A DNA stretch of 64,000 nt from Candidatus Kaiserbacteria bacterium (GTDB taxonomy: Bacteria > Patescibacteriota > Minisyncoccia > Phycocordibacterales > Phycocordibacteraceae), in assembly GCA_016182485.1 (NCBI GenBank), contig JACPGH010000006.1:90461-154460 (forward strand), given 5' to 3'. How positions within the stretch are numbered: position 1 is the stretch's first letter; every line of letters starts with the position of its first letter. Positions 3,549 to 19,679 of the stretch are shown in pieces. Made by a program: the position numbers and the translations under genes. The notes beneath the pieces are model-generated. The model was not told where the DNA came from. It saw only the letters and a list, made by a program, of their open reading frames with translations, and searched no databases.

Positions 3549-4289
3549 CTAGGACCCCAGAATGGTCAATTGGGCGAAGATGACGTTATTGACCGTATTC
3601 GATTCGACAACCGCGTTGTCGAAGTTCGCTCGCAGCGTAATGGTCCTACCCGCGCCGGGAATCGGCTGATCGAAGCCCAGAGTGTACTCAATTCTGTCTC
3701 CGGGATTAAGAGATTGCTGCGGCGCGGATTGGAACACGAAATTGGTCTGGGTCGGGATTGTTGCGCTGAAACGCCACGACCCAGTCGAGTTCGTGCCCGC
3801 ATTATGTATCGTGAAGCGCACGGCAGGACGGCCGCCAACCGGAACGGTGGTACTGGCGATAAACGAGTCCGTCGTCGGACCGACCAGGTATCCCACCTCC
3901 TGTATGGTTATGGCGAGATCCGGGAGGCCGTGGAGAACGGGAGTAGTAGTCCCGCTTATCAGCGTATTAGTGCCGGTGCGCGGACCGGCCACATAACCTC
4001 CGCCCCCAAGAGGCGTTTGACGGGGCGGGGTCGAGGTCGCCGTCGAAGTCGCAGAACCGTTGCCTAACCCTGCGCCCGGCGGTGTCGTGGTCGCGACTGT
4101 TCCCGGCGGCGGAGTATCGAGAGACGACCCGAGATAAATGGCGGCCAGTCCCGTGCGGTCCACGATTTCCGGCACGTATCGCGCACCGAGAACAGCGAGC
4201 CATACGCCAGCGCCGACTAAGGAGACGAATCCGACGATCGCCAAGCCGCTCATCACTCCGGGATTCACGCGAATGTTGTTTTGATCCAT
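3549..4289 (-). CDS. Membrane-anchored protein with a CARDB-like (cell-adhesion) beta domain
   Basis: N-terminal TM helix, then a Thr/Pro-rich linker and a C-terminal beta-rich domain (NAGTNSTG...VNNV). It lies 11 nt downstream of the giant surface-protein gene on the same strand. Confidence 0.55.
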   Translation of the reverse strand: MDQNNIRVNPGVMSGLAIVGFVSLVGAGVWLAVLGARYVPEIVDRTGLAAIYLGSSLDTPPPGTVATTTPPGAGLGNGSATSTATSTPPRQTPLGGGGYVAGPRTGTNTLISGTTTPVLHGLPDLAITIQEVGYLVGPTTDSFIASTTVPVGGRPAVRFTIHNAGTNSTGSWRFSATIPTQTNFVFQSAPQQSLNPGDRIEYTLGFDQPIPGAGRTITLRANFDNAVVESNTVNNVIFAQLTILGS

Positions 4290-4300
4290 AAGCCTGTGTA

Positions 4301-7078
4301 TTAATGGTTTACTCTTCCCACAACCGAGAGCGCCCGCACGAGCGCGAGCTTGGCGCCCGTCACGCCGGAGGCGTAACTCGAGTCGATGGCAGTTGTGAGC
4401 GAGGAGATAAGATTCTCAAGGATGGGAGTCGGGAATTGCTGCGCCCTGCGCGCGATGTCAGGATCGCAAGGGGTGCCGTCGATGCGCGCGCGATATGCGT
4501 CGTCTAATAGACAGGCGATCGACGTGAGCAAGTCCTCCGGCGCGCCGCCACCGCGCATATGCTGGCGAAGGCCCGAGAAGACCGCTTCCCTATCGCCTTC
4601 TAGAAGCGAGAGCGCGAAGCCTTTGAGAGATGCGGGGGCCGGGGCCGCGGGAGATGGCTCGGCCGCTTGCATGAGGGGCTCGACGCGCGGCTCCGGAGCA
4701 GGCTCCGCGTACGGGTCGCGCGTAAGGCCCTTGACGATATCCTCTACCGTGAGGGCTCCGTCATTCGCGAACGATTTGAAGCCCTCGTAGGAGGAATATC
4801 CGCGGGAGGTCTCTGGCGTCTCCCTCGACGTAGAGATCGCGGCGGGAGCTGGAGCGGCGGTGGCGGTGGCGGTGGCGGTGGCGGGAACGACGAGTGGTCC
4901 GGGAGTGGTCATGATCATCTCTTTAACACGCTGAATGAATTCCCGCATCTGGCGGTTCACGAACGGGGCGACGTGGAATAGCATCAGATACGCCGCCACG
5001 AGAGCCCAGCCGATGACCGCTAGCCAATACAGTGTTGTTCCCAGAGGGCCGAGATCGAGACCGGTGAAGGGGATCTGCGAGAGAAAGACGAAAGCCAAGG
5101 GCTGCTCTGCCGCCCGCGGAAGCGCGGAAACTACGACAGTCGGCGGCGGCGCAACCGGGGCGCTGGGCGCTCCTGCGCCTCCGCCTGGTTGGGAGAGACC
5201 GACCGCCGCAAAGCATGTGGCCGTCCGGCCGGATGCGTCTCTCGCGGTGCCGGTAAAGGTCGTGCCAGTCGTAATGGGTGGCGTGGTAGTCGAGCCGCTC
5301 TCCACCGGAAACACCGGGCCGATACCCCGGTCGATGGCAAATGCGACCGCGCTTACTGTCGTCCAGAAGAGCCTGGACGTCCCTCCGACATTCACCGTGT
5401 CCGGAGAAGCGGAGAGCGTGCACGCTAGTGCCGGTATAACGACTACGACTGCGGAGCAAGTCACCGAGCCGCCCCTGCCGGTTGCCGTTCCAGTAAATGT
5501 CGTAGTGGCCGTGGGAGAAACGGAAAGCGAGCCGGCCGCGACCGGCGTAACCGAGCCTATTCCGTTGTCGAGGACGAAAGACGTCGCTTCTGTCGACGTC
5601 CAGGAGAGCGTAGAGGAAAGACCTCTTTGAATAGTCGCCGGGGCCGCCGTGAGCGTACAGGTAGGCACCGGGGGAGGCACGACCGATATGGCGGCGGAAC
5701 AATTCACCGAACCGCCCGGACCGGTCGCTGTTCCCGTAAACGTGACGTTGACCGTCGGAGAAACGGAAAGCGAGCCGGCCGCGACCGGCGTTACCGAGCC
5801 GATCCCGTTGTCGATGACGAACGACGTGGCATTTGTCGTTGCCCAAGAAAGGGTTGCCGAGGTCCCCGTCTCGATTGTTGTTGGAGCCGCCGTAAGCGTA
5901 CAGGTAGGCGCCGGCGGAGGAGGGGGCGGCGGCGGCGGAGGCGGGGGTGGAGGAGGAGGGGGCGGCGGCGGAGGGGCGCCTCCATCCGCTTGTACTCCAG
6001 GACCAGCGGGTCCTACGCCTGCGTCTCCGCCGACGCCGCCGGCGTCCCCAGCATCTCCGCCGACACCGCCGGCGTCTCCCGCGTCTCCACCTGCGCCGCC
6101 ACCGTCACCTCCGTCGCCTCCCGCACCTCCACCATCGCCCCCATCCCCGCCGGCACCACCGCCGTCACCGCCGTCACCTCCCGCACCACCGCCGTCGGTT
6201 CCGTAATATCTGATTTGAAATTGAATATGTTCTTTGTCGTCAGCGCCAACATGGCCCAATGGGATCGAGAATGTGTACACCTTATGCTGCCAGGAAACTT
6301 TGTCCGTATACGTGAAGGCGCTCTCCCCCCACGCGGTCTCGCTTCCGTTTATCATGAACGTCTTTACGCCACTATCCGTGACGATGCCGATCTCTGCCCA
6401 ATCTCCTCCCTCGCCGATATCGAGCGTATTGTCGGATGTCCAGTCGAGCGTAATATAGAGATTCTTCTTGTCCGCGCTCACGTGCGCATATCTCACGGCG
6501 AACGGATGGCTAGAGACCGGGATCTCGGCGAAGGTATAAGTACGAGTATCGCCTATGGCGTAATCGAGGAATCCGTTCCTCGGCCATCGATAGGGCTCTC
6601 CTTTAAAATCTTCGGCTACGCCAGTGATCGTGAACGACGCTCCTTTGGCCTTCCATGCGAATTCCAGGCTGCGGTCGCGCGCTTCTATGACGTCATAATC
6701 CGCGCGCGCAAGCTTCTGTATCTGCACGCGGTCCCCCGTCGAGTCTCTCGCGGAAGCGGGAGCCAGTCCGTTCAACGCTACCGTGTCTAGATGCGCCGAC
6801 TGCGTCCCTCCGTTGTGCGTTATCCGTATACGGTCGCTTGACTCTCGCAGCGTGAAAGTTCTCGTAGCGTATCGATCCGGATGCGGGCGACCTGGAAAAG
6901 ATTCGCTTGCCACGAATTCCCAAGAGCCGTTCACGTATGCCTCGATAGTAAATGAATCTGAATCCGCCTGCGCGCTCGGCGTTTGGAAAAGAGAATCGCC
7001 GGATAGCGTAAAACTGCCTCCGAGCGCAAGAAGCATAACTATAACCATTCCTGTTGTATAAATATGCGTCCAGCGCAT
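4301..7078 (-). CDS. Large cell-surface protein: signal peptide, three tandem Ig-like ~70-aa repeats, poly-Pro and Gly-Asp linkers, an IPFTG motif, a single TM helix and a 230-aa cytoplasmic C-terminal domain
   Basis: 925-aa ORF. The signal peptide is MRWTHIYTTGMVIVMLLALGGSFTLSG...AQA. A run of more than 20 prolines is encoded by a GGN tract on the + strand (about 5900-5990), with (GGDGG)n repeats. Three repeats resemble CTLTAAPxTIxxGxSxTLSWxxTxATSFVxDNGIGSVTPVAAGSLSVSPT, matching a ~210-bp DNA tandem repeat at about 5380-5900. The motif LSQIPFTG is followed by the hydrophobic segment LGTTLYWLAVIGWALVAAYLMLF and then NRQMRE. Confidence 0.7.
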   Translation of the reverse strand: MRWTHIYTTGMVIVMLLALGGSFTLSGDSLFQTPSAQADSDSFTIEAYVNGSWEFVASESFPGRPHPDRYATRTFTLRESSDRIRITHNGGTQSAHLDTVALNGLAPASARDSTGDRVQIQKLARADYDVIEARDRSLEFAWKAKGASFTITGVAEDFKGEPYRWPRNGFLDYAIGDTRTYTFAEIPVSSHPFAVRYAHVSADKKNLYITLDWTSDNTLDIGEGGDWAEIGIVTDSGVKTFMINGSETAWGESAFTYTDKVSWQHKVYTFSIPLGHVGADDKEHIQFQIRYYGTDGGGAGGDGGDGGGAGGDGGDGGGAGGDGGDGGGAGGDAGDAGGVGGDAGDAGGVGGDAGVGPAGPGVQADGGAPPPPPPPPPPPPPPPPPPPPPAPTCTLTAAPTTIETGTSATLSWATTNATSFVIDNGIGSVTPVAAGSLSVSPTVNVTFTGTATGPGGSVNCSAAISVVPPPVPTCTLTAAPATIQRGLSSTLSWTSTEATSFVLDNGIGSVTPVAAGSLSVSPTATTTFTGTATGRGGSVTCSAVVVVIPALACTLSASPDTVNVGGTSRLFWTTVSAVAFAIDRGIGPVFPVESGSTTTPPITTGTTFTGTARDASGRTATCFAAVGLSQPGGGAGAPSAPVAPPPTVVVSALPRAAEQPLAFVFLSQIPFTGLDLGPLGTTLYWLAVIGWALVAAYLMLFHVAPFVNRQMREFIQRVKEMIMTTPGPLVVPATATATATAAPAPAAISTSRETPETSRGYSSYEGFKSFANDGALTVEDIVKGLTRDPYAEPAPEPRVEPLMQAAEPSPAAPAPASLKGFALSLLEGDREAVFSGLRQHMRGGGAPEDLLTSIACLLDDAYRARIDGTPCDPDIARRAQQFPTPILENLISSLTTAIDSSYASGVTGAKLALVRALSVVGRVNH

Positions 7079-7120
7079 AGTCAGTTCCTATTTCCGACGC
7101 ACCTCGCAGAGATGCGCCGG

Positions 7121-7164
7121 AAAAGAGAACCGCCGGTGTGCCTAGCGAGCTCGCTAGGCACACC
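7121..7164 (-). terminator. Intrinsic terminator
   Basis: Perfect 30-nt palindrome GGTGTGCCTAGCGAGCTCGCTAGGCACACC (7135-7164). On the minus-strand RNA it is followed by UCUCUUUU. It lies 24 nt downstream of the stop of the 7188..8441 gene. Confidence 0.55.
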
Positions 7165-7187
7165 CAACGATCCGTACTGCGGCAGCG

Positions 7188-8441
7188 TTACGGCATGTCT
7201 TTCCGCCAGTATGCTGCCGCCGCGTGCTTAAGGCACCACAACTTCCCTCCGGCCTTGCCCTCCCACTCGCGTGGCAGGACGCGGATGCGGCGTTCGCCCC
7301 CTGACTCAGCCGGCGATTGGAAGTAGCGGGGAAAGATAATCTCGATTACCTGCCGCTTCTGACTATCTGACAGCGGAATTGTCGCGCGCCCATTTTGCAG
7401 GCTGAGTGTCCCGAGGTCCTGCGCGAGCTGGAGCGTTCCGGGGTGACGAAGGTATACACGTACATTCTCGTTGAACGGCGCACGTGTTTGCACTACTTTG
7501 TCGAGTTGGTCATACAGCGTTCGCGAAACAGCATCTCCCTCGTATGCTGCCAGGATACTCCCCCCATCGCTGTTACGGCCCTTTGCGACGTCGATAAGCG
7601 CCTTGACGCGATCGAGGAGCTCGGGATGCTTCTCGATATCGTCCATTAGAAACGCGTTGACGTCGAGACCGCTCACGATGGGGCAGTCTGCAGTTGAACC
7701 GGGCTCAGGCGAAGGGGCCGGACGCGCGACCTCGGCTGGCGGGGACGGAGGAGCTGGCGGAGGCGGCGTGTAGCGCTGCACCAGATCCATGGTGTAGGTC
7801 CTGACGCAGAGATTGTGGCAGACTGCCGGCTCATACAGTACCGTACCGACGTTGCCCACTCGATGGTGAAACGCGTACGTTACCAGCGACTTCCCGTCCG
7901 CGTGAAGATAGACCGGATTCAGACGCTCGAGCGAGCCCGTACTCGGCCTATACGTCACCTTCTCGACCTGCTTGTAGAGGCCGAACTGCATCCACGTGCA
8001 AGTGTCGCCGACGGCCATCGTCTTGCGGTAGATCTGGAGCGCGCTGGCGTCGATCTGCTCCCGCTCGATCTTGGCCGCAATTTCTCTCCATCCCGGGACT
8101 TGCGCGGCGGAGAGGACTGCCTGGACGTTCTCGATGTACAGACGACTCTTGTCATACCCGAGCCGGCGCGCTTCCGCGAGAACCTTATCCCGCTGCGCAC
8201 CTCTCGGCAGATAGCCGTCGACCGTTGCGAGCGAGACGGTGACCTTGTTGCGCTCCACGAGTATCGATTCGCGAGCTACCCGGTCGATCGGCATTCGCGC
8301 GAGAGCGACGCTTGGGTCTCCGACGAACGGATTCCCGGCAATGTCAGTCCACGCACGGCCGGAGACGGGAGTCTCCTGAGCGAGTGCAGGGCGGAAGGGC
8401 AGCAGTACTAGGAGCAGGACGAAGAGAACGAGTCTGTGCAC
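7188..8441 (-). CDS. Secreted hypothetical protein with a Pro-rich segment
   Basis: The ORF runs to 8516, but AAAGGAGAG lies 5 nt before a GTG at 8439-8441, giving a signal peptide (V/M)HRLVLFVLLLVLLPFRPALAQETP. The segment PPPPAPPSPP sits in the middle. Confidence 0.6.
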   Translation of the reverse strand: MHRLVLFVLLLVLLPFRPALAQETPVSGRAWTDIAGNPFVGDPSVALARMPIDRVARESILVERNKVTVSLATVDGYLPRGAQRDKVLAEARRLGYDKSRLYIENVQAVLSAAQVPGWREIAAKIEREQIDASALQIYRKTMAVGDTCTWMQFGLYKQVEKVTYRPSTGSLERLNPVYLHADGKSLVTYAFHHRVGNVGTVLYEPAVCHNLCVRTYTMDLVQRYTPPPPAPPSPPAEVARPAPSPEPGSTADCPIVSGLDVNAFLMDDIEKHPELLDRVKALIDVAKGRNSDGGSILAAYEGDAVSRTLYDQLDKVVQTRAPFNENVRVYLRHPGTLQLAQDLGTLSLQNGRATIPLSDSQKRQVIEIIFPRYFQSPAESGGERRIRVLPREWEGKAGGKLWCLKHAAAAYWRKDMP

Positions 8442-8715
8442 GGGACTCTCCTTTGGCGCTCTTTTTCGGCGCCAGTTTCTGTTCTGCGCAATTGCATGAA
8501 CAGCTTGCCGAGACACTCGGCTGTGCAGCGGGTACTGCTGGAGCTTGCGGTTGTGCGGGTGCAGGCGGCGTTACAGCAGCCGTTACGACGGGCGGATGCC
8601 GCACATCCCACCACCGCATGAGTCCGCCGCCGGCGAGCATGCCGAGCACGAACGCTCCGACGATTACCGCCAAAACCCCTTTCGAAATTCCGGCGAGAAA
8701 TGCGCCTATACTCAT
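8344..8715 (-). CDS. Small membrane protein (N-terminal TM, Pro/Ala-rich, Cys-rich CSCNC segment)
   Basis: The ATG at 8713-8715 is preceded by a strong SD AGGAGG with a 5-nt spacer. There is one predicted TM helix. The ORF overlaps the downstream secreted-protein gene by about 98 nt in another frame. Confidence 0.45.
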   Translation of the reverse strand: MSIGAFLAGISKGVLAVIVGAFVLGMLAGGGLMRWWDVRHPPVVTAAVTPPAPAQPQAPAVPAAQPSVSASCSCNCAEQKLAPKKSAKGESRAQTRSLRPAPSTAALPPCTRSGDSRLRPCVD

Positions 8716-8799
8716 CGCTACCTCCTGGGTCTAGTGGTGTTGGAAAGAGCAGTCCCTCCCGTCAATTCTCCATTGCGGAGAGACATGCGCCTTCTACCG

Positions 8800-9453
8800 T
8801 TACGTAGAAAGCGCGTGTCTCTCAACAAAATCGGCGACTACTACAAATCGGTCTGTCTTCTTGGCGAACGAGTCGCACGTCGAGAGCGTAAGCACCTGGC
8901 CCGTCACTGAAAGAGGAATTACTCCGTCATTGGCGCTTTGTTTCGTAACGCTGCGCACTTTATATACATAGGCTACGCGAGATGAAGATACGGTTATAGT
9001 GTCTCCCGGCGCGAGTTTCTGGATATCGTTGAATGTCTTATACGCCTGATTCCAGACTACCGGCAGGTAGCTCGAATGCCCGAAAAGAACTACATTGCCC
9101 GTTTCGCCCAACTTCGCGGACGTCGGATATCGGACCGCGCCGGAAAGGAGCGCCTTATCGAGCACTTCGATCTCCGTGGAAGCCGGATTAACCACTTGCG
9201 CGGACATGCCCAGGGCAGGAATTGCTATTCTGACTGGCAACTCCGGAGAGGCGGGAACATCTGCTGTAACCCTTGCAGTGTCAGCAGTGTCTCGGGCGGC
9301 CGCCGGCGCCTCCGGCAAAAGGCCGAGACTACCGAGTATGACACCGGTAGTGAAAAAGACAAGGAGAAAAAGGCCGAGAAAAGGCCATTTCCTCGCCCAC
9401 ACTTTCTGCCCCGCCCTGATCAGGCGGACGGCGACGCGTACCAACGTCTTCAT
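8800..9453 (-). CDS. Sortase (transpeptidase)
   Basis: N-terminal membrane anchor, with a conserved His (VVLFGHSSY), the catalytic TLSTC motif and a downstream conserved Arg (RFVVVAD). Confidence 0.8.
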   Translation of the reverse strand: MKTLVRVAVRLIRAGQKVWARKWPFLGLFLLVFFTTGVILGSLGLLPEAPAAARDTADTARVTADVPASPELPVRIAIPALGMSAQVVNPASTEIEVLDKALLSGAVRYPTSAKLGETGNVVLFGHSSYLPVVWNQAYKTFNDIQKLAPGDTITVSSSRVAYVYKVRSVTKQSANDGVIPLSVTGQVLTLSTCDSFAKKTDRFVVVADFVERHALST

Positions 9454-9492
9454 ATCGTCTTTTTCAGCAATACACTAATATAAAAGCACTGT

Positions 9493-9511
9493 CAATATTT
9501 GACAGTACAAG
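9493..9511. promoter_or_regulatory. 19-bp palindrome ACTGTCAA-TAT-TTGACAGT overlapping a -35-like TTGACA upstream of the sortase gene
   Basis: Perfect 8-bp arms. On the minus strand, TTGACA is followed 17 nt later by TATTGC, 40-58 nt upstream of the sortase ATG. Confidence 0.3.
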
Positions 9512-9530
9512 ACTCTATGTTCTCAGTTGG

Positions 9531-10049
9531 TTATCTGGGCAGTTCCCTTTTCTCGACCTTAACGAGCTCCACTTCGAATACGAGCGTCGAATTGGCCGGA
9601 ATCACATTCCCAATTGCCCGCTCGCCGTACGCAAGTCCTGGAGGTATGACCAGACGGCGCTTCCCTCCTTCTTTCATCCCGACGAGACCCTCGTCCCAGC
9701 CGCGGATAACCTGGCCGACTCCGAGCGCGAATGTGAATCCGGTATCGCCATGATCGGCAGACGCGTCGAAAACGCTCCCGTCGGTGAGCGCGCCGACGTA
9801 GTTCACTGTTACCGTATCTCCCGGAGCCGCAGCTGCTCCCGTACCGACGAGTTCATCTGTTATCTGCAGGTTGGTTGTGGACATAGGAAGGTTCTGTTGA
9901 GTGCTAGTGGCTTGCAATTGCGGGCTTTCGTCAAGCGGCGCCGCTTCCGTACCCGGCATGGGGAGCGGGAGAAGGCCCGGGAATAGGTAAAAGGACGCGA
10001 CGACGGCTAGGGCGAGGGCGGCGGCGATTCCTGTGTGCGTTGGTTTCAT
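9531..10049 (-). CDS. FKBP-type peptidyl-prolyl cis-trans isomerase, membrane-anchored or secreted
   Basis: C-terminal FKBP domain (VNYVGALTDGSVFDAS...GVGQVIRGWDEGLVGMKEGGKRRLVIPPGLAYG...LVFEVELV) with an N-terminal hydrophobic anchor. Confidence 0.85.
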   Translation of the reverse strand: MKPTHTGIAAALALAVVASFYLFPGLLPLPMPGTEAAPLDESPQLQATSTQQNLPMSTTNLQITDELVGTGAAAAPGDTVTVNYVGALTDGSVFDASADHGDTGFTFALGVGQVIRGWDEGLVGMKEGGKRRLVIPPGLAYGERAIGNVIPANSTLVFEVELVKVEKRELPR

Positions 10050-10204: not shown

Positions 10205-13045
10205 TCAATGGGAGAGATACCGCTCGCGGATCATCGTCTCTACGGTAGCACGGTCGCGCCCGTACGTTTGCGCAGAAAGGTGCACAAGCGCGTCGATTTG
10301 CTCCGGATTCCCTTTCTCCGGCGCCGGCGTCTTCAGGTCAAACGGTTTTTGCGGCACGCCGGCGGCGAGGATTTTCACATATGCGTTGAAATTTTCTATA
10401 TTGACGAAATCCAGAGCTTCGAATACCGGCGCGAACTGCTTCGCGAAAAATTCGGCGTCCTCTTCGCCTACGCGGAAAACAGCCATATTGCCGACGTTGC
10501 CGAACACGGCATTGCGCGTCTTTTCGTCGATCTGATTCAGGAATTGGTGCGCCATGGCGAGCGCGAGCTTGTATTTGCGCGCCTCGGAGAGAATGCCGGG
10601 GATCGAATCGGTAGTTACGTTATGGAATTCGTCCATATAGAGATAGAACGGCGCATGCGCGGCGCGCGGAGAATCCGCGCGAGAGAGAGCCGCCATAAAC
10701 AGTTTCCCTACAATTATGAGACCTATGAGATTTGCATTCTTCTCGCCCAAGCGGCCTTTCGAGAGGTTAATGAGAAGTATTTTCCTGGTGTCCATCACCT
10801 CGCGGAACTTGAATGAAGACTGCTGCTGTCCGACGATCGGCCGTATGAAGTCGTTCGCGGTGAAGTCATCGAACTTGTTCGTGATATACGGCACGATATT
10901 GGCGAGCGAAGCCTCCCCTTCCGCCTTCGTCGCTATCTCCTGCCAGAACTGATTGATGATCGGATTCATGCTCCTGCTCAGTTTCAGCCGGCGGAATTCG
11001 CTATTGGAGAGCACTCGCGCGATATCGAGTATCGTAGAGCCGCTCGTCGGGTCCTCGAGTACGAGCTGAGTCGCATTTCGGAAATATTGCTCGAACGCCG
11101 GGCCCATGCTCTCCGGCACATCTCCATAGAGCCGGCGGAAGATCATCAGGAGCTCGTTCACAATGAACGTCTTTTGTTCGGGCCGAGAGAGGTCGTACTC
11201 GAGAAAATTGAGACTGAAGGGGCGCGATAGGTCCGCCGGGTCGAAGTAGATCACATCCTGATAGCGCGCGGGCGGGACGGAGGCGAGGATATCGAGGATA
11301 TCGGAGCCGTGCGGATCGATGAAGCAGCAGCCTTCGCCGTTCTTGATGTCCTGAATGATCATCGACTTCAAGAGGCCGGTCTTGCCGGTGCCGGTCTGAC
11401 CTATGACATATAGGTGGCGCAGGCGGTCCTCGGCCGAAAGATGGATGGGAGTCTCCACGCCTCGGTAGGTATTTTTCCCCAATAGAACCGCCCCGGCAGG
11501 CGCCTGCCCCGTTAGAAATCCGATTTCTAACGGGGCAGGCGCGTGCGTGAAGCGCGCCTGCTTCAAGTGCGGCGCCGATTCGAGACCGGCCGGCGGGAAA
11601 TGATAGAGGCTCGTCAATTCGCGCAGCGATAACGGAAGGGCGGAGGGACTGGGGAGACGAAAAGAAAAATCCTCGCAAACCCCTTGCACATTGCGCGGGC
11701 CGGCCCGTTCGAACGTAAAGCGGTTCCCTTGCGTATTAGCGAATTGATTAAAGGCGGCTTCAAGCTCGCCGAGCGCTTGTTCGGCCTTGCGCTCGTTGCC
11801 AGAAGACACGACTAGCCGAATGGTCGTGCCGACGATCGGCGTCGCGATCTTCTTTTCGACCAGCTCGATGAAAGTCTTGTTCGCGTCTATTTGACGAGTT
11901 TCCGTCTGCTTGGCTTTTTCGACATCTTTCGGTTTGCTGGAAAAGAGCGCGCGCCCCATGTCGCGCGCAAAGGCCCCGAGCGCGGTCTCCGGCATCGAAA
12001 ACGCGCTCGAATGCTTCTCGCCCTTGCGCAAGGCGTTAAGGATCTTTCGATAATGAGCTACGTGGCGCTCCCCGCGCGGCTCGACGATGATCTGAAGCGC
12101 GGCCCCCTCGCCGGTGTGCTCGATCTTGGCGAAGGCATTCGTTATAACGTTGATCGGGTCGTAATCGAACTCTGTGTACATAGTCAGCGGCAAGGCCGGA
12201 TGCGCAGCGAGTTTCGCCGTAGCAGCGAGCGAAGTCCCGCCCTGAGCAAAGATATTGTAGTCGCGCGGCTCCAGAGTCAGATGGGCGTCCGGGAATATGC
12301 CGAGCAGTTGCTTTTCGAAGAGGTCGCGCTTCCCTCGCGGCACGGCCGCATAGAATTGGAGGTGCGGGCTATCGGCCGGGATCGCGAGCTCAAGCGCGAA
12401 ATAGTTCGGTTCTGCTCCGGAAGCGTTTCCGATCGACAGCAGTCCCGCATATAACTGCTCCATGCTTGAGACAAGTTCTTTTAGCGGCTTGTTTCTGGTT
12501 TCTGGTTTCTGGTTGCTCGTTTCCGGCAGCGCGATCGCATAGAGCTCCATTTTAAGAGCTCTGAAGCGGGGCGCTTTCTCATCCGTGTTCGGCACCTGCA
12601 AACCTTCGCCAACGTAGCGTACGAGATAGCGGTGGAAGTCATCCGTCACGTGCGCGTCGTGGAGGCCTTCCATGACCGCCAGCGCGTTCTTGATCCCTTT
12701 CTCTTCGAGCGTTTTTTGTAGCGCCTGAATGGCCCCGTCGCTGCCGCCGAGCTCGAACTCGGCGCGCAGAGTTTCGGCCCTGCTCTTCTGCTCCGAGGCC
12801 GGCAGGCGATACTCTGGCGCGAGAATTTTTTCAGGCGCTGACGTATGCTCATGGATCGTTTCGGATATGATCCGGACGCGTTCCGCTTCTGGCGCTTGGT
12901 CTGCCGCTCCTTGTCGGAGTTCCGCCTCTTTGCGCGCGACTTGCTCGCGCAGATACGCGAGCTCCGCTTCCGGAGTGGTGAGTGGCGGCGTCGCTTCCAT
13001 TCTTTTTAGTATACCCCGCCGAATACTCGGGGAATTCTTTTTCAA
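10205..13045 (-). CDS. TraD/VirD4-like coupling-protein-type ATPase (FtsK-HerA superfamily, T4SS DNA-transfer-like)
   Basis: 946 aa. Walker A is GQTGTGKTG, followed by CFIDPHGSD (the DPxG motif typical of TraD/TrwB/HerA-like ATPases). The N-terminal domain is about 500 aa. No T4SS partner genes are nearby. Confidence 0.65.
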   Translation of the reverse strand: MKKNSPSIRRGILKRMEATPPLTTPEAELAYLREQVARKEAELRQGAADQAPEAERVRIISETIHEHTSAPEKILAPEYRLPASEQKSRAETLRAEFELGGSDGAIQALQKTLEEKGIKNALAVMEGLHDAHVTDDFHRYLVRYVGEGLQVPNTDEKAPRFRALKMELYAIALPETSNQKPETRNKPLKELVSSMEQLYAGLLSIGNASGAEPNYFALELAIPADSPHLQFYAAVPRGKRDLFEKQLLGIFPDAHLTLEPRDYNIFAQGGTSLAATAKLAAHPALPLTMYTEFDYDPINVITNAFAKIEHTGEGAALQIIVEPRGERHVAHYRKILNALRKGEKHSSAFSMPETALGAFARDMGRALFSSKPKDVEKAKQTETRQIDANKTFIELVEKKIATPIVGTTIRLVVSSGNERKAEQALGELEAAFNQFANTQGNRFTFERAGPRNVQGVCEDFSFRLPSPSALPLSLRELTSLYHFPPAGLESAPHLKQARFTHAPAPLEIGFLTGQAPAGAVLLGKNTYRGVETPIHLSAEDRLRHLYVIGQTGTGKTGLLKSMIIQDIKNGEGCCFIDPHGSDILDILASVPPARYQDVIYFDPADLSRPFSLNFLEYDLSRPEQKTFIVNELLMIFRRLYGDVPESMGPAFEQYFRNATQLVLEDPTSGSTILDIARVLSNSEFRRLKLSRSMNPIINQFWQEIATKAEGEASLANIVPYITNKFDDFTANDFIRPIVGQQQSSFKFREVMDTRKILLINLSKGRLGEKNANLIGLIIVGKLFMAALSRADSPRAAHAPFYLYMDEFHNVTTDSIPGILSEARKYKLALAMAHQFLNQIDEKTRNAVFGNVGNMAVFRVGEEDAEFFAKQFAPVFEALDFVNIENFNAYVKILAAGVPQKPFDLKTPAPEKGNPEQIDALVHLSAQTYGRDRATVETMIRERYLSH
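11500..11542. repeat. 43-nt perfect palindrome inside the TraD-like CDS
   Basis: GCGCCTGCCCCGTTAGAAATC-C-GATTTCTAACGGGGCAGGCGC, with 21-bp perfect arms. In frame it encodes ...HAPAPLEIGFLTGQAPAG... Confidence 0.7.
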
Positions 13046-17805: not shown

Positions 17806-18627
17806 TTAAGAGCCGCAGAGGGCGCGGAGGGCGGAGAGGTCGGCGGCGGTCGGCACGAGATTCCCGCTCTCGTTCTCGGCGTACATGATGGCGTTCGCAT
17901 CCTCGTTGTGACCGAGGCCGATGGCGTGCCCGAACTCGTGCGCGAGCACCCGCTTAAGCTGCGTGGCGCCGATAAACTCGAAAATGTTTATTCGCACGCC
18001 CCTCGCGTCGCTCACGTATTCTCCTTCGCGGAACGTCTGTCCCGCGAATTGATTGTATTCCGCGACTTTCGCATTAATTACTCGCACGCGGGCATTATAT
18101 TCAGCGACTTTGGCGTTTATGGTATCCGAAAGCGCCGAGAGCGCCGCCTGCTTCGCCTTGAGCGCGGCGGCTTCCTGCTTCTTGGCGCCGCCGCCTGCCT
18201 TGCCGACAGGCAGGCGCGCATTTACCGCCGCAACTTCTCTGACATAGGCCGCCTGCTCGATTTCGTAACGAGCGCGCAGAGTGTCGAGTGCGGCGCGCGC
18301 CGCATCGATCTCCTCCTGTTCCCGCGCGATCTGACTGCCGAGCTTAGCGGTCGCCTCGCGCTCGTCATAAATGAGATTGATCTTGAGCGATGCCTGCGGC
18401 TCATACGCAAGGACAGTCTTGCCGGCTGCGTCGTTCCATATCGCCGCGGATGCTCTCGCGTTCTCTACAAGCGCGGCATTCGATATCTCGAAACGCTTAT
18501 CGATCGCGCCCAAAGCGAATCCTACAGGATGCCTGCATGGGCGCGTGTTCTGATATTCGTAGTATATGACCCCGGTCGACAGGACGAGGGCAACGAGAAG
18601 TATGAGCCAGCGAGAAGCGTCTTTCAT
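17806..18627 (-). CDS. Membrane-anchored zinc metalloprotease (metzincin/matrixin-like)
   Basis: HEFGHAIGLGH (HExxHxxGxxH) plus the Met-turn AIMY. N-terminal TM helix. Internal repeat INAKVAEYNARVRVINAKVAEYNQ. Confidence 0.75.
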   Translation of the reverse strand: MKDASRWLILLVALVLSTGVIYYEYQNTRPCRHPVGFALGAIDKRFEISNAALVENARASAAIWNDAAGKTVLAYEPQASLKINLIYDEREATAKLGSQIAREQEEIDAARAALDTLRARYEIEQAAYVREVAAVNARLPVGKAGGGAKKQEAAALKAKQAALSALSDTINAKVAEYNARVRVINAKVAEYNQFAGQTFREGEYVSDARGVRINIFEFIGATQLKRVLAHEFGHAIGLGHNEDANAIMYAENESGNLVPTAADLSALRALCGS

Positions 18628-19679
18628 TCTTTATATAACTCGAGCACGGCCAGCTCGAGCGGGAGCGCAGGAATAGGCGCATATCGGATGCGCTCTCCTG
18701 CCTCGAGAAATGCCCGTAGCGTCTTATGCGTGATGTGGGAAGTGCTACTTACCACATCATTGCCGGAGATTTTTTCGAGCGCTGCGAATTCGTCCGCCCC
18801 GAGCTCGCTCGCGAGCTCGGGGCGGAGCTCGGGCGCATAGCGGATGAGAAGCACCGAGCGCAATCCTTCGAGCACAAGCTCCAGATAAAGGCGCATATCT
18901 ATGCCGGCTCTGGCCGCTTTTTCTATCGTCTCAAGCGCGCGGCCTTGGCCCCCAGCGGGCGGCGCCTTTGCGAGCGCGGAAAGAAGCGCATGCACCTGCT
19001 CTCGGCGCGGCGCGGCTGTGACTGCTTCTACCGATTCCCGCGAAATAATTTTTCCTGGAGCCGCGACGAGAACCTTCTGCAACACCGAAAGCGCGTCGCG
19101 ATACGAGCCCTCGGCGAGAATGGCGACGAGCTCGGCCGCGGCCGCCTCGAGGGCAACCCCCTCCTTCTTGGCGACCGCGATTGCAGTCTTCGCGAGCACT
19201 GCTCTAGTAGGCTTCTTGAACTCGAACACCTGACAGCGCGATTGCACGGTTTCCGGCACTTTTTCGATTTCGGTTGTTGCAAGTATGAAAACAGCGTGCG
19301 CCGGGGGTTCCTCCAGCGTCTTCAAGAAAGCATTCCAGGCGCCCTTCGAGAGCATGTGCACTTCGTCGAGAATGTACACCTTATAGGACGACTCGAACGG
19401 CAACGTGTACACGCCCTCGGTGAGCGCGCGGATATCTTCTACGCTGTTGTGGCTTGCCGCGTCTATTTCATGCAGATCACGCTCGCTCGTGCCAATCGCG
19501 GCGGCGAAGATGCGCGCTACCGAAGTTTTCCCCAAGCCGCGGCTTCCGGCAAAAAGATAGGCGTGGCCGATCTTTTTTGCTTTGACCGCTTCAGATAACG
19601 GCTTCGTCACCTGTTCTTGCCCTATGACTTCTTCAAATGTCGCCGGCCGATACGTGCGATAGAGAGCCTGATGCGCCAT
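18624..19679 (-). CDS. dnaX: DNA polymerase III subunit gamma/tau (short form)
   Basis: N-terminus YRPATFEEVIGQE, Walker A GSRGLGKTS, and the AAA+ clamp-loader sensor motifs. It is only 351 aa. Confidence 0.8.
   Translation of the reverse strand: MAHQALYRTYRPATFEEVIGQEQVTKPLSEAVKAKKIGHAYLFAGSRGLGKTSVARIFAAAIGTSERDLHEIDAASHNSVEDIRALTEGVYTLPFESSYKVYILDEVHMLSKGAWNAFLKTLEEPPAHAVFILATTEIEKVPETVQSRCQVFEFKKPTRAVLAKTAIAVAKKEGVALEAAAAELVAILAEGSYRDALSVLQKVLVAAPGKIISRESVEAVTAAPRREQVHALLSALAKAPPAGGQGRALETIEKAARAGIDMRLYLELVLEGLRSVLLIRYAPELRPELASELGADEFAALEKISGNDVVSSTSHITHKTLRAFLEAGERIRYAPIPALPLELAVLELYKE

What the first reader, a model, noticed from the sequence alone, without database searches (positions are those of the whole stretch)
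4301..10049. Cell-envelope locus: giant surface protein with an IPFTG-TM junction and a long cytoplasmic tail, plus sortase, extracytoplasmic FKBP, a CARDB-like protein and a secreted Pro-rich protein
Within about 6 kb on the minus strand lie, in order: (i) a sortase with the intact TLSTC, His and Arg triad; (ii) a membrane-anchored FKBP PPIase; (iii) a small SD-driven membrane protein; (iv) a secreted 417-aa protein; (v) a 925-aa surface protein; and (vi) a CARDB-like membrane protein 11 nt downstream of it. The 925-aa protein has a cleavable signal peptide, three tandem Ig-like repeats, a poly-Pro run of more than 20 residues and (GGDGG)n linkers. The sequence LSQIPFTG sits immediately before its only TM helix, followed by NRQMRE. 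This is the architecture of a sortase sorting signal ([LI]PxTG, then a hydrophobic segment, then basic residues). However, instead of ending there, the protein continues for about 230 cytoplasmic residues with no recognisable domain. If the sortase cleaves at IPFT|G, the ectodomain would be transferred to the wall or the S-layer, leaving a TM plus cytoplasmic stub. A sorting signal embedded mid-protein is not a described arrangement.
Basis: partly seen in the sequence, partly recalled or inferred. Interest (0 to 1): 0.7.

Follow-up and report, generated by a model that had tools for sequence, protein, structure and literature searches.

The report
Sortase partner with mid-protein sorting motif
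In an uncultured ultra-small bacterium (Kaiserbacteria/Paceibacteria group), a sortase gene is always paired with a surface protein whose sortase-type cleavage motif sits in the middle of the protein, and the inner half is a conserved membrane-anchored domain folded like part of the DNA clamp loader that some lineages keep on its own.

Summary
ORF 4301-7078(-) encodes one continuous 925-aa protein: signal peptide, beta-rich head, Gly/Asp linker, 21-Pro run, three 80-aa repeats, IPFTG (aa 669-673), one TM helix (683-707), NRQMRE, then a 218-aa cytoplasmic tail.

The protein belongs to a large Paceibacteria family, found in at least 187 species-level genomes. Ectodomains vary from 173 to 1204 aa. 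The juxtamembrane motif, the TM helix and the tail are the conserved parts. P, T and G of [I/V/M]P[Y/Q/F]TG are invariant in 68 of 68 full-length members.

A sortase lies upstream on the same strand in 45 of 45 loci with enough flank. The reverse holds in 17 of 17 sortase-anchored loci. A diverged subfamily also has the sortase directly upstream.

Some lineages lost the sortase and the ectodomain together but kept TM plus tail under purifying selection (dN/dS 0.24).

Best reading (about 0.6): a dedicated sortase cleaves at T|G, wall-anchors the variable ectodomain and leaves a functional stub. Cleavage is untested. FKBP is not part of the conserved module.

The parts
8800..9453 (-). Membrane-anchored sortase, 217 aa, from a divergent CPR clade that fits no curated class.
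   Evidence: PF04203, E 7.6e-22. The best class model is class E, at 56 bits against a cut-off of 160. H126, C193 and R202 are invariant in alignment A2. The closest solved structure is B. anthracis SrtA 2kw8, E 7e-6. A sortase is present upstream on the same strand in 45 of 45 relatives' loci.
8344..8715 (-). Small 123-aa ORF with an N-terminal hydrophobic segment. Its status is uncertain and it is not a conserved member of the module.
   Evidence: AGGAGG lies 6 nt before the ATG. The ORF overlaps the next gene's start. tblastn finds no counterpart in 85 loci, and there is none between the sortase and the secreted protein in L025, L034, L057 or L005.
7188..8516 (-). Secreted, fast-evolving protein. 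It is 442 aa from the first GTG; the likely start is the GTG at 8441, which gives 417 aa with a signal peptide.
   Evidence: No Pfam or NCBIfam hit. An SD-like AAGGAG precedes the GTG at 8441. Homologues with 30-43% identity lie between the sortase and the motif protein in many loci. The gene is absent in the diverged subfamily loci L169 and L170.
4301..7078 (-). 925-aa type I membrane protein: variable ectodomain, IPFTG, TM helix and conserved cytoplasmic tail.
   Evidence: The family has 131 hits and is found in 187 species-level genomes. Full-length homologues of 438-1475 aa share this architecture.
6965..7078 (-). Signal peptide, aa 1-38, with an AQA|DS-type cleavage site.
   Evidence: Hydropathy profile. 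The cleavage site is inferred from the sequence.
6191..6964 (-). Beta-rich head domain, aa 39-296. It is rare and possibly a carbohydrate-binding-type beta-sandwich.
5912..6190 (-). Low-complexity stalk: a Gly/Asp-rich linker with six GGD[GA]G units (aa 297-368) and a 21-residue poly-Pro run (aa 369-389).
   Evidence: Relatives carry comparable poly-Pro and poly-Gly tracts, where gene callers break the ORF.
5189..5908 (-). Three tandem repeats of about 80 aa (aa 391-630), each with two conserved Cys. An Ig-like fold is presumed.
   Evidence: The same repeat occurs in many family members and in other CPR surface proteins. Some relatives carry SpaA_2, CLIPPER or VWA domains instead or in addition.
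5030..5134 (-). Juxtamembrane block, aa 649-683. It is the most conserved segment of the family (consensus TLxxLPHVxxQPLAYLYLSQIPYTGLDLGPxGT).
   Evidence: Mean pairwise identity is 69% here, against 42% for the adjacent ectodomain.
5060..5074 (-). IPFTG pentapeptide, aa 669-673. This is the candidate sortase site, with cleavage predicted between T672 and G673.
   Evidence: P, T and G are at 100%, I at 95%, and X is Y87/Q10/F1 in 64 proteins. Homology in the stub-only fusions begins at G673.
4958..5032 (-). Single TM helix, aa 683-707, followed by the basic NRQMRE.
   Evidence: Hydropathy profile. AF2 predicts a helix with pLDDT above 94. Mean pairwise identity is 61%.
4634..4957 (-). Cytoplasmic linker, aa 708-815. 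It is mostly disordered but contains the conserved GYSSY[DE]GFKSF...GAL[ST][IV][ED]DIVKGL motif.
   Evidence: Alignment A1 shows nearly invariant columns. AF2 pLDDT is 46-67.
4304..4633 (-). C-terminal six-helix cytoplasmic domain, aa 816-925, resembling clamp-loader gamma/tau domain III (the collar domain).
3549..4289 (-). CARDB-like protein with an N-terminal TM anchor, 246 aa, containing no Lys. It is a conserved module member.
   Evidence: PF07705, 25.9 bits against a cut-off of 22.7. Present in 43 of 45 loci: divergent from the sortase in 39 and downstream, as here, in 4. Its N-terminal anchor is the fusion partner in the stub-only variants.
9531..10049 (-). Extracytoplasmic FKBP-type PPIase. 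It is a neighbour only and not part of the conserved module.
   Evidence: PF00254. It accompanies the module in only the three loci with the window-type arrangement, L025, L034 and L057. It remains in loci that have lost the sortase and the ectodomain.
9477..9508 (-). Terminator-like hairpin overlapping a promoter-like site between FKBP and the sortase. This is a possible start of the module's transcription unit.
   Evidence: Pattern scan only.

Best explanation
This is a dedicated sortase-substrate module of Kaiserbacteria-type Paceibacteria. Its conserved members are a divergent membrane-anchored sortase, one cognate type I membrane protein and a CARDB-like membrane protein. A fast-evolving secreted protein usually accompanies them.

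Shown:
- The cognate protein is a single ORF.
- Its ectodomain is hypervariable in length and domain content.
- The ectodomain is joined by an invariant [I/V/M]-P-x-T-G pentapeptide to a TM helix and a conserved cytoplasmic tail of about 250 aa.
- The terminal domain of the tail has the fold of clamp-loader gamma/tau domain III.

Inferred:
- After Sec export, the TM helix and tail hold the pentapeptide at the outer membrane face.
- The neighbouring sortase cleaves between T672 and G673 and transfers the ectodomain, most likely to peptidoglycan.
- The fragment G673-925 stays behind as a membrane-anchored cytoplasmic protein with a function of its own. By analogy with the collar domain, this function probably involves oligomerisation or partner binding. 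The same fragment is encoded as a stand-alone gene, under purifying selection, in lineages that lost the sortase and the ectodomain.
For: 1. The architecture matches a sorting signal: pentapeptide, 9-residue spacer, 25-residue TM helix, then Arg residues.
2. The pattern of constraint mirrors LPXTG. P, T and G are at 100%, position 1 is hydrophobic (I95/M3/A1), and X is free (Y87/Q10/F1).
3. Gene coupling is tight. A sortase lies 1.5-4.7 kb upstream on the same strand in 45 of 45 loci. Conversely, 17 of 17 sortase-anchored metagenome loci carry the tail gene downstream. In a diverged subfamily the sortase stop is 2-34 nt from the start of the motif protein. The module keeps its members in two different genomic locations.
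4. No other LPxTG-plus-TM candidate exists in the window or in the neighbouring DNA of the relatives. None of the 133 representative hits has a short canonical tail.
5. Natural deletions are informative. L172, L173, L176 and L177 retain the flanking genes but lack the sortase, the secreted protein, the ectodomain and the CARDB domain. They keep TM plus tail fused to another anchor, and homology starts exactly at G673. dN/dS for this stub is 0.24, and 0.19 in the C-terminal domain.
6. The pentapeptide has decayed (ATSTG, ISYAG, FPYSG or absent) in variants without an ectodomain.
7. Relatives' ectodomains contain SpaA_2, CLIPPER and VWA domains. From general knowledge, these are typical of sortase-anchored adhesins.
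8. AF2 gives the motif region low to moderate confidence, as expected for a flexible linear site.
Against: - Cleavage has not been observed.
- Residues flanking the pentapeptide are as invariant as P, T and G: L-3, S-2, Q-1, L+5, L+7 and G+8. This is unusual for sorting signals and could mean a structural or binding role.
- No curated sorting-signal model hits the protein, and the sortase fits no curated class.
- Much of the synteny is inherited vertically, so 45 of 45 overstates the number of independent observations.
- The loss of sortase and ectodomain in the CARDB-anchor fusion lineage can be explained by a single deletion of adjacent DNA.
- One stub-only variant, P0099, keeps an intact SQIPYTG without a sortase catalytic domain next to it.
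Confidence: 0.6

Rival explanations
1. The protein is a stable, uncleaved type I membrane protein, either an adhesin or a receptor with a cytoplasmic domain. The SQIPYTGLDLG block is a structural or protein-binding juxtamembrane element. The neighbouring sortase serves other substrates or is merely syntenic.
For: The conserved block extends well beyond the pentapeptide on both sides. The long conserved tail is unprecedented for sortase substrates. No sorting-signal HMM hits the protein. Synteny is largely vertical, since most loci share the same gyrB...proS/dnaE neighbourhood. P0099 keeps the motif without a sortase domain nearby.
Against: The pattern of P, T and G invariant with X free is what a sortase site predicts. 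The pentapeptide decays when the ectodomain is absent, while the following G-L...G..T..YW block and the tail persist. Sortase adjacency survives rearrangement of gene order and relocation of the module. No other candidate substrate lies nearby.
Confidence: 0.27
2. The sortase acts as a regulated sheddase. Cleavage at T|G releases or relocates the ectodomain in response to a surface cue, and the stub then signals to the cytoplasm. It might do so after further intramembrane proteolysis, through its clamp-loader-like domain.
For: The cytoplasmic domain is conserved and has an autonomous function. Its fold is related to a replication-factor interaction domain. From memory of the streptococcal literature (not checked here), leftover sorting-signal peptides can be sensed.
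Against: No site-2 protease or regulator is conserved in the module. Stub-only lineages show that the tail works without any cleavage event. The tail has no DNA-binding or enzymatic domain.
Confidence: 0.08
3. The module builds a sortase-polymerised pilus, in which the ectodomain is joined to a Lys of another subunit as in class C sortase systems.
For: From general knowledge, IPQTG-type motifs occur in Gram-positive pilins. SpaA-like and VWA domains occur in some relatives. A second secreted protein is present in the cluster.
Against: 22 of 68 mature ectodomains contain no Lys at all and 35 of 68 contain two or fewer. The CARDB-like neighbour in the window has no Lys (sequence). The class C sortase model scores 24 bits against a cut-off of 160. 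Each module has only one motif-bearing protein.
Confidence: 0.03
4. The arrangement is an artefact. Two genes, a surface protein with a normal C-terminal signal and a separate cytoplasmic protein, have been joined by a sequencing or assembly error in the low-complexity region.
For: Public gene calls of relatives are mostly short fragments of 190-500 aa. Poly-Pro and poly-Gly tracts are error-prone, and L001 has an N-run inside the repeats.
Against: The short calls are gene-caller truncations. The frames stay open back to a signal peptide in all four loci examined by hand (L001, L003, L004, L005), and 68 distinct full-length ORFs could be reconstructed from independent assemblies. The junction of motif, TM helix and tail contains no low-complexity DNA. 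Representative proteins of 500-1400 aa show the same architecture.
Confidence: 0.01

Closest known systems
LPXTG cell-wall sorting signal processed by a housekeeping sortase (the S. aureus SrtA paradigm)
   Same: There is an [I/L]PxTG pentapeptide, a short spacer, a hydrophobic membrane-spanning segment and basic residues on the cytoplasmic side. A membrane-anchored Cys-His-Arg sortase is encoded nearby.
   Different: The signal is not C-terminal. About 218 residues follow the TM helix here (241-332 residues follow the pentapeptide across the family), and they are conserved and partly folded. The flanks of the pentapeptide are invariant. No TIGR01167-type hit is found, and the sortase is outside the curated classes A-F.
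Dedicated one-sortase, one-target pairs, for example the class GN 'marine' sortase with its VWA-domain target (general knowledge of the NCBIfam/TIGRFAMs definitions)
   Same: There is one sortase gene adjacent to one cognate motif-bearing protein. The pair is conserved across many genomes and moves as a unit.
   Different: The class GN model scores 19.5 bits against a cut-off of 158. The motif and the lineage differ, and the target here carries a large cytoplasmic domain.
Pilin-type sorting motifs of class C sortase systems, such as the IPQTG of streptococcal pilins (general knowledge)
   Same: IPxTG with Ile in position 1. Several family members have exactly IPQTG. Some ectodomains contain SpaA-like and VWA domains.
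   Different: Many ectodomains lack a Lys nucleophile. Each cluster has a single motif protein, and the class C HMM is not met.
Domain III (collar domain) of the bacterial clamp-loader subunits gamma/tau, delta and delta', and of RFC
   Different: There are no AAA+ domains I and II. The domain is tethered to the membrane behind a TM helix. The window protein itself has no Pfam hit. hhalign against E. coli DnaX and the window's own DnaX is not significant. The window has a normal dnaX elsewhere.
Other prokaryotic C-terminal sorting domains: PEP-CTERM/exosortase, PGF-CTERM/archaeosortase, GlyGly-CTERM/rhombosortase and MYXO-CTERM/myxosortase
   Same: The design is tripartite: a signature motif, a TM helix and basic residues, paired with a dedicated processing enzyme. 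This is how the abstracts listed describe these systems.
   Different: All of these are described as small C-terminal domains. Here the tripartite signal is internal and is followed by a conserved protein module.

Membership tests
Sortase (PF04203 transpeptidase) | Match to the sortase domain model above its curated cut-off | tested here: met
   77.8 bits against a cut-off of 26.6, E 7.6e-22.
Sortase (PF04203 transpeptidase) | Catalytic His, Cys (TLxTC) and Arg residues | tested here: met
   H126, C193 (TLSTC) and R202 are invariant in A2 across seven sequences, including the diverged L086.
Sortase (PF04203 transpeptidase) | Assignment to a curated class (A-F or GN) | tested here: not met
   Best is class E at 56.4 bits against a cut-off of 160. 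Class D scores 34, F 30, C 24, GN 19.5 and B 14, all far below their cut-offs.
Sortase (PF04203 transpeptidase) | Transpeptidase activity on the neighbouring motif | not testable with these tools
   This needs an enzyme assay or proteomics.
LPXTG-type cell-wall sorting signal | [LI]PxTG-like pentapeptide with conserved P, T and G | tested here: met
   IPFTG at aa 669-673. P, T and G are invariant in 64 aligned relatives.
LPXTG-type cell-wall sorting signal | Hydrophobic membrane segment shortly after the motif, followed by basic residues | tested here: met
   TM helix 683-707, 9 residues after G673, then NRQMRE. AF2 predicts a helix with pLDDT above 94.
LPXTG-type cell-wall sorting signal | Location at the extreme C-terminus, with a tail of only a few residues | tested here: not met
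   218 residues follow the TM helix here, and 241-332 residues follow the pentapeptide in 68 relatives. None of 133 representative hits has a tail shorter than 60 residues.
LPXTG-type cell-wall sorting signal | Match to a curated anchor model in NCBIfam | tested here: not met
   No NCBIfam family at E up to 0.1 for the 925-aa protein.
LPXTG-type cell-wall sorting signal | Cleavage between T and G and linkage to the wall | not testable with these tools
   There is indirect support only: homology in the stub-only fusions begins at G673, and the motif decays where there is no ectodomain.
Sortase-assembled pilin | Lys nucleophile (pilin motif) in the ectodomain | tested here: not met
   22 of 68 ectodomains have no Lys.
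Clamp-loader gamma/tau domain III (PF12169) | Fold of the collar domain | tested here: met
Clamp-loader gamma/tau domain III (PF12169) | Sequence match above the Pfam gathering score | tested here: not met
   The window tail has no hit at E up to 10. 8 of 19 relatives hit at best E 2.2e-4; the one score recorded, for P0179, is 15.9 bits against 24.4. hhalign against two DnaX sequences is not significant.
Clamp-loader gamma/tau domain III (PF12169) | Preceded by AAA+ domains I and II | tested here: not met
   The domain follows a TM helix and a disordered linker, and no AAA+ hit is found.
CARDB domain protein (PF07705) | Match above the gathering score | tested here: met
   25.9 bits against a cut-off of 22.7 for ORF 3549-4289.
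FKBP-type PPIase (PF00254) | Match above the gathering score | tested here: met
   111.5 bits against a cut-off of 21.1. It is not a conserved member of the module.

The most novel reading that the evidence does not exclude
The family is a bifunctional precursor. A dedicated sortase splits it into two products. One is a wall-anchored, rapidly diversifying adhesin or stalk. The other is a membrane-anchored cytoplasmic protein carrying a clamp-loader collar-type domain, which either oligomerises into a ring at the inner membrane face or docks onto the DnaX/HolA/HolB collar.

Sorting signals would then be more than disposable C-terminal tags. In these minimal cells, surface-protein maturation would be physically coupled to a cytoplasmic assembly, possibly the replisome.
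Probability: 0.15. Interest if true: 0.85.

Novelty: new variant of a known kind. Interest (0 to 1): 0.66.

Why it matters
Sortase and related sorting signals are defined as short C-terminal tags that are discarded after cleavage. This family is found in at least 187 species-level genomes of a major uncultured bacterial group. It places the signal in the middle of the protein and conserves what follows better than what precedes.

If cleavage is confirmed, three things follow:
- The rules used to predict sortase substrates would need widening, because current predictors and HMMs require a C-terminal position and miss this family.
- It would be the first case in which the 'leftover' fragment is itself a conserved functional protein.
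- It would identify the main dedicated sortase substrate, and hence a likely host-contact structure, of Kaiserbacteria-type CPR bacteria, whose envelopes are essentially uncharacterised.

The membrane-tethered clamp-loader-like domain is an unexplained module in its own right and worth structural study.

There is also a practical point. Public protein databases hold mostly truncated versions of these genes, because gene callers break at the poly-Pro and poly-Gly tracts.

Tried and rejected
1. Pfam and NCBIfam on the whole 925-aa protein, and Pfam on the tail alone, gave no hits.
2. A profile search of PDB sequences with A1 returned only a designed helical protein at E 1.8, which is meaningless.
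3. hhalign of the tail-domain alignment A3 against E. coli DnaX and against the window's own DnaX was not significant. The E. coli alignment fell in the wrong region. The alignment to the window's DnaX fell at the start of domain III but with E 0.47. Homology with clamp loaders therefore rests on the fold and on recurrent weak Pfam hits, not on a significant pairwise profile match.
4. Literature searches found no description of this family or of an internal sortase signal. The terms were sortase plus CPR, Patescibacteria or Kaiserbacteria; IPYTG; the fate of cleaved sorting signals; and dedicated sortase. The Pam pilus preprint concerns an unrelated chaperone-usher-like system.
6. I first took the many 250-300-aa homologues to be stand-alone 'motif plus tail' genes. 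I rejected this: in the loci I checked, the frames stay open upstream to a signal peptide.
7. I used the scan for other canonical substrates in 1.18 Mb of relatives' DNA only as evidence about the neighbourhood, because the loci are syntenic copies of one region and not a genome sample.
8. I rejected FKBP, the small ORF and the VirD4-like ATPase as module members on the basis of synteny.
9. The contexts of P0071, P0221 and P0211 could not be checked because look-ups were exhausted, and P0219's contig is only 1.3 kb. For P0071, P0221 and P0211 the stub-only status is therefore unverified, and for all four, P0219 included, the absence of a sortase is unknown.

Full report
OBSERVATION

- ORF 8800-9453 is a sortase (PF04203, E 7.6e-22). 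Its His126, Cys193 (TLSTC) and Arg202 are invariant in an alignment with six homologues.
- ORF 9531-10049 is an FKBP-type isomerase with an N-terminal hydrophobic segment.
- ORF 3549-4289 passes the CARDB model (25.9 bits against 22.7) and starts 11 nt after the stop of the large gene.
- ORF 4301-7078 is the large gene. It is an uninterrupted 925-codon frame.

The layout of the large protein is as follows:
- a signal peptide;
- a beta-rich head (aa 39-296);
- six GGD[GA]G units;
- a run of 21 prolines (aa 369-389);
- three tandem 80-aa repeats with paired cysteines;
- IPFTG at aa 669-673;
- a single transmembrane segment at aa 683-707;
- NRQMRE, then 218 further residues.

IPFTG is the only LPxTG-like motif followed by a hydrophobic segment in any long ORF of the 64-kb window. 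The window has no second sortase and no paralogue of the tail.

The 123-aa ORF (8344-8715) has a good Shine-Dalgarno sequence, but it overlaps the next gene and has no counterpart in close relatives. The 'Ig-like' label for the repeats is an inference.

A CONSERVED FAMILY, NOT A ONE-OFF

A search with the last 288 residues returned 131 proteins, all from Kaiserbacteria, Paceibacteria or 'Minisyncoccia' metagenome bins. A scan of one genome per species found relatives in 187 genomes.

Most database entries are only 190-500 aa long, which at first suggested stand-alone 'motif plus tail' genes. Reading the DNA showed otherwise. In all four loci examined by hand, the frame stays open upstream through poly-Pro and poly-Gly tracts to a signal peptide. 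From the loci fetched I reconstructed 68 distinct full-length proteins. An exhaustive HMM search also returned full-length representatives of 500-1400 aa with the tail at the C-terminus.

WHAT IS CONSERVED AND WHAT IS NOT

Ectodomains range from 173 to 1204 residues. Some are nothing but a Pro-rich stalk with PPCC motifs, as in L003 and L005. Others carry up to a dozen repeats, SpaA-like prealbumin domains, CLIPPER/DUF11 or VWA domains. The segment after the pentapeptide stays within 241-332 residues.

Mean pairwise identity by segment:

| Segment | Identity |
|---|---|
| 35 residues around the motif | 69% |
| TM helix | 61% |
| Last 115 residues | 64% |
| Adjacent ectodomain | 42% |
| Cytoplasmic linker | 42% |

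Within the pentapeptide, P, T and G are invariant. Position 1 is I95/M3/A1 and the X position is Y87/Q10/F1. This is the constraint pattern expected of an LPXTG site. However, L-3, S-2, Q-1, L+5, L+7 and G+8 are equally fixed, which is not typical of sorting signals.

COUPLING TO THE SORTASE

- In all 45 loci with at least 5.5 kb of upstream sequence, a homologous sortase lies 1.5-4.7 kb upstream on the same strand.
- 43 of the 45 also have the CARDB-like gene, which is divergent from the sortase in 39 and downstream, as in the window, in 4.
- In the reciprocal test I scanned metagenome contigs with a sortase alignment. All 17 loci with enough downstream DNA carry the tail gene.
- Much of this synteny is inherited, because most loci sit between gyrB and proS/dnaE. 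Even so, the module appears intact at a second location in the window and in L004, L025, L034 and L057, next to tgt; in the window, L025, L034 and L057 it also lies next to FKBP and a VirD4-like ATPase.
- A diverged subfamily has the motif SQ[IV]PYTGF[EA]AG and an extra tail domain. There the intervening secreted protein is absent, or in L086 and L087 a 696-aa gene lies upstream of the sortase instead, and the sortase stop is 2-34 nt from the start of the motif protein.
- FKBP is not a conserved member. It accompanies the module only in the window-type arrangement. A terminator-like and promoter-like site separates it from the sortase.

THE TAIL

AlphaFold2, run with the 121-sequence alignment, gave the following:
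- a long, confident TM helix;
- a mostly disordered linker containing the conserved GYSSY[DE]GFKSF...GALS[IV][ED]DIVKGL motif;
- a six-helix C-terminal domain (aa 816-925) with pLDDT above 95.

At the sequence level the window protein has no Pfam hit. Among 19 family tail domains scanned one by one, 8 hit DNA_pol3_gamma3 (best E 2.2e-4), one hit Rep_fac_C and one hit DNA_pol3_delta_C. hhalign against single DnaX sequences is not significant.

I conclude that the domain has the collar (domain III) fold and is probably a remote homologue. It is not a member of PF12169 by that family's own threshold, and it lacks the AAA+ domains. In clamp loaders this domain mediates subunit-subunit contacts (general knowledge). 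Oligomerisation or partner binding is therefore the most economical guess for its role here.

NATURAL DELETIONS

Loci L172, L173, L176 and L177 have the window's neighbourhood: tgt, FKBP and the VirD4-like ATPase at 72% identity. In place of the four-gene module they carry a single 315-319-aa gene.
- Its first 59 residues are the N-terminal anchor of the CARDB-like protein (49% identity, E 4e-14).
- The rest is the TM helix and tail of the large protein. The BLAST alignment begins exactly at G673, the residue that would head the stub after cleavage at T|G.
- Two members of this lineage are 69% identical. dN/dS is 0.24 overall and 0.19 in the C-terminal domain, so the stub alone is under purifying selection.

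A second, independent variant, P0099, joins the N-terminal anchor of the sortase itself to SQIPYTGLDLG, the TM helix and the tail (hhalign probability 80%, E 1.4e-5).

Other short variants have degenerate pentapeptides: P0219 has ATSTG, P0071 has ISYAG and P0221 has FPYSG. P0219 is verified as a genuinely short ORF. In the CARDB-anchor fusions the pentapeptide is absent. Thus P and T are fixed in 68 of 68 proteins that have an ectodomain, and they are mostly lost where there is none.

Two caveats apply. The fusion lineage is one event. The contexts of P0071, P0211 and P0221 could not be checked, and P0219's 1.3-kb contig shows nothing about a sortase.

MECHANISM

The best-supported reading is a dedicated sortase-substrate pair.

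Shown:
- the architecture;
- the LPXTG-like constraint pattern;
- the persistent gene coupling;
- the autonomous, selected stub;
- the collar-like fold.

Inferred:
- the sortase cleaves at T672|G673 and attaches the variable ectodomain to the wall;
- G673-925 remains as a functional membrane-anchored cytoplasmic protein.

Attachment to another protein through a Lys, as in pili, is unlikely as a general mechanism. 22 of 68 ectodomains have no Lys, and the CARDB-like neighbour has none (sequence).

The main rival, at about 0.27, is that the block is a structural juxtamembrane element of an uncleaved receptor or adhesin. The extended flanking conservation supports this, as does P0099, which retains the motif without a sortase domain.

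COMPARISON WITH KNOWN SYSTEMS

The system works like LPXTG/sortase anchoring, and like the one-sortase, one-target pairs known from other lineages. It fails the defining 'C-terminal' feature of sorting signals, and it matches no curated anchor or sortase-class model. Prokaryotic sorting signals are described in the literature as small C-terminal domains. I found no report of an internal one followed by a conserved domain, and none of this family. I therefore rate it a new variant of a known kind. The membrane-tethered clamp-loader-like domain is an additional unexplained element.

Noticed in passing
L172:10001-10960, L173:2382-3341, L176:4816-5763, L177:1839-2786 (proteins P0095, P0111; also P0108, P0211): A lineage in which the whole module is replaced by one gene. 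That gene fuses the N-terminal anchor of the CARDB-like protein to the post-motif TM helix and tail. Homology to the window protein starts exactly at G673 of IPFT|G. dN/dS between two members is 0.24.
   Followed up: yes
L174:1660-2940 (P0099): A second kind of deletion-fusion: the N-terminal membrane anchor of the sortase is joined directly to SQIPYTGLDLG, the TM helix and the tail. It also has a tandem duplication of about 90 aa in the cytoplasmic linker. No sortase catalytic domain is present on the 5-kb contig.
   Followed up: partly
P0153, P0238; L086:4094-7138, L169:8001-11828, L170:1803-5612: The tails are modular. A diverged subfamily inserts an extra conserved cytoplasmic domain (ESRAHAAGVLMSPEA...PREDGW...SDR) before the collar-like domain. 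P0153 and P0238 end after that extra domain and have no collar-like domain.
   Followed up: partly
window 10205-13045 (-): A 946-aa VirD4/TraD-like coupling-protein ATPase lies directly upstream of FKBP. It has subthreshold to borderline DUF87, TraG-D_C and TrwB hits; its homologue in L172 carries DUF8128. It is 70-73% identical in L025, L034, L057 and L172. Its function in these tiny genomes is unknown.
   Followed up: no
window 8344-8715 (-) against 7188-8516 (-): A small ORF with a strong Shine-Dalgarno sequence overlaps the start of the secreted-protein gene by about 98-170 nt in another frame. It is not conserved in close relatives. L001 has an unrelated 169-aa TM protein at that position.
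   Followed up: partly
L003:9350-10861, L005:9380-10852 and many database entries (P0007, P0019, P0027, P0057 and others): Gene callers truncate family members at the poly-Pro and poly-Gly tracts and call spurious opposite-strand ORFs there, so public protein sets contain mostly fragments. Some ectodomains are only a Pro-rich stalk with repeated LPPCCVIPPPP motifs, reminiscent of disulfide-linked hinges.
   Followed up: partly
window 6191-6964 (-), head domain; P0254, P0255: The head domain of the window protein is a rare module. It is shared only with L025 and with two unrelated secreted proteins, where it is fused to other repeats (precomputed Pfam PF18885 in one, Calx-beta PF03160 in the other). 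A conserved FTSDNT[LM]D...WG..AFTYTDKVS[WY]QHK.Y.FSIP signature is present.
   Followed up: partly
ectodomains of 68 family members: The ectodomains are strikingly depleted in Lys: none in 22 of 68 and two or fewer in 35 of 68. Cys counts are almost always even. The CARDB-like neighbour in the window also has no Lys.
   Followed up: partly
window 18624-19679 (-): The window encodes its own DnaX: 351 aa, 37.5% identical to E. coli DnaX residues 1-299. The clamp-loader-like tail domain is therefore an additional copy of the fold, not the cell's only one.
   Followed up: partly
L001:~9900-10000: An N-run (assembly gap) lies inside the tandem repeats of the L001 homologue. This illustrates that repeat number in these genes is unreliable in short-read assemblies.
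   Followed up: no
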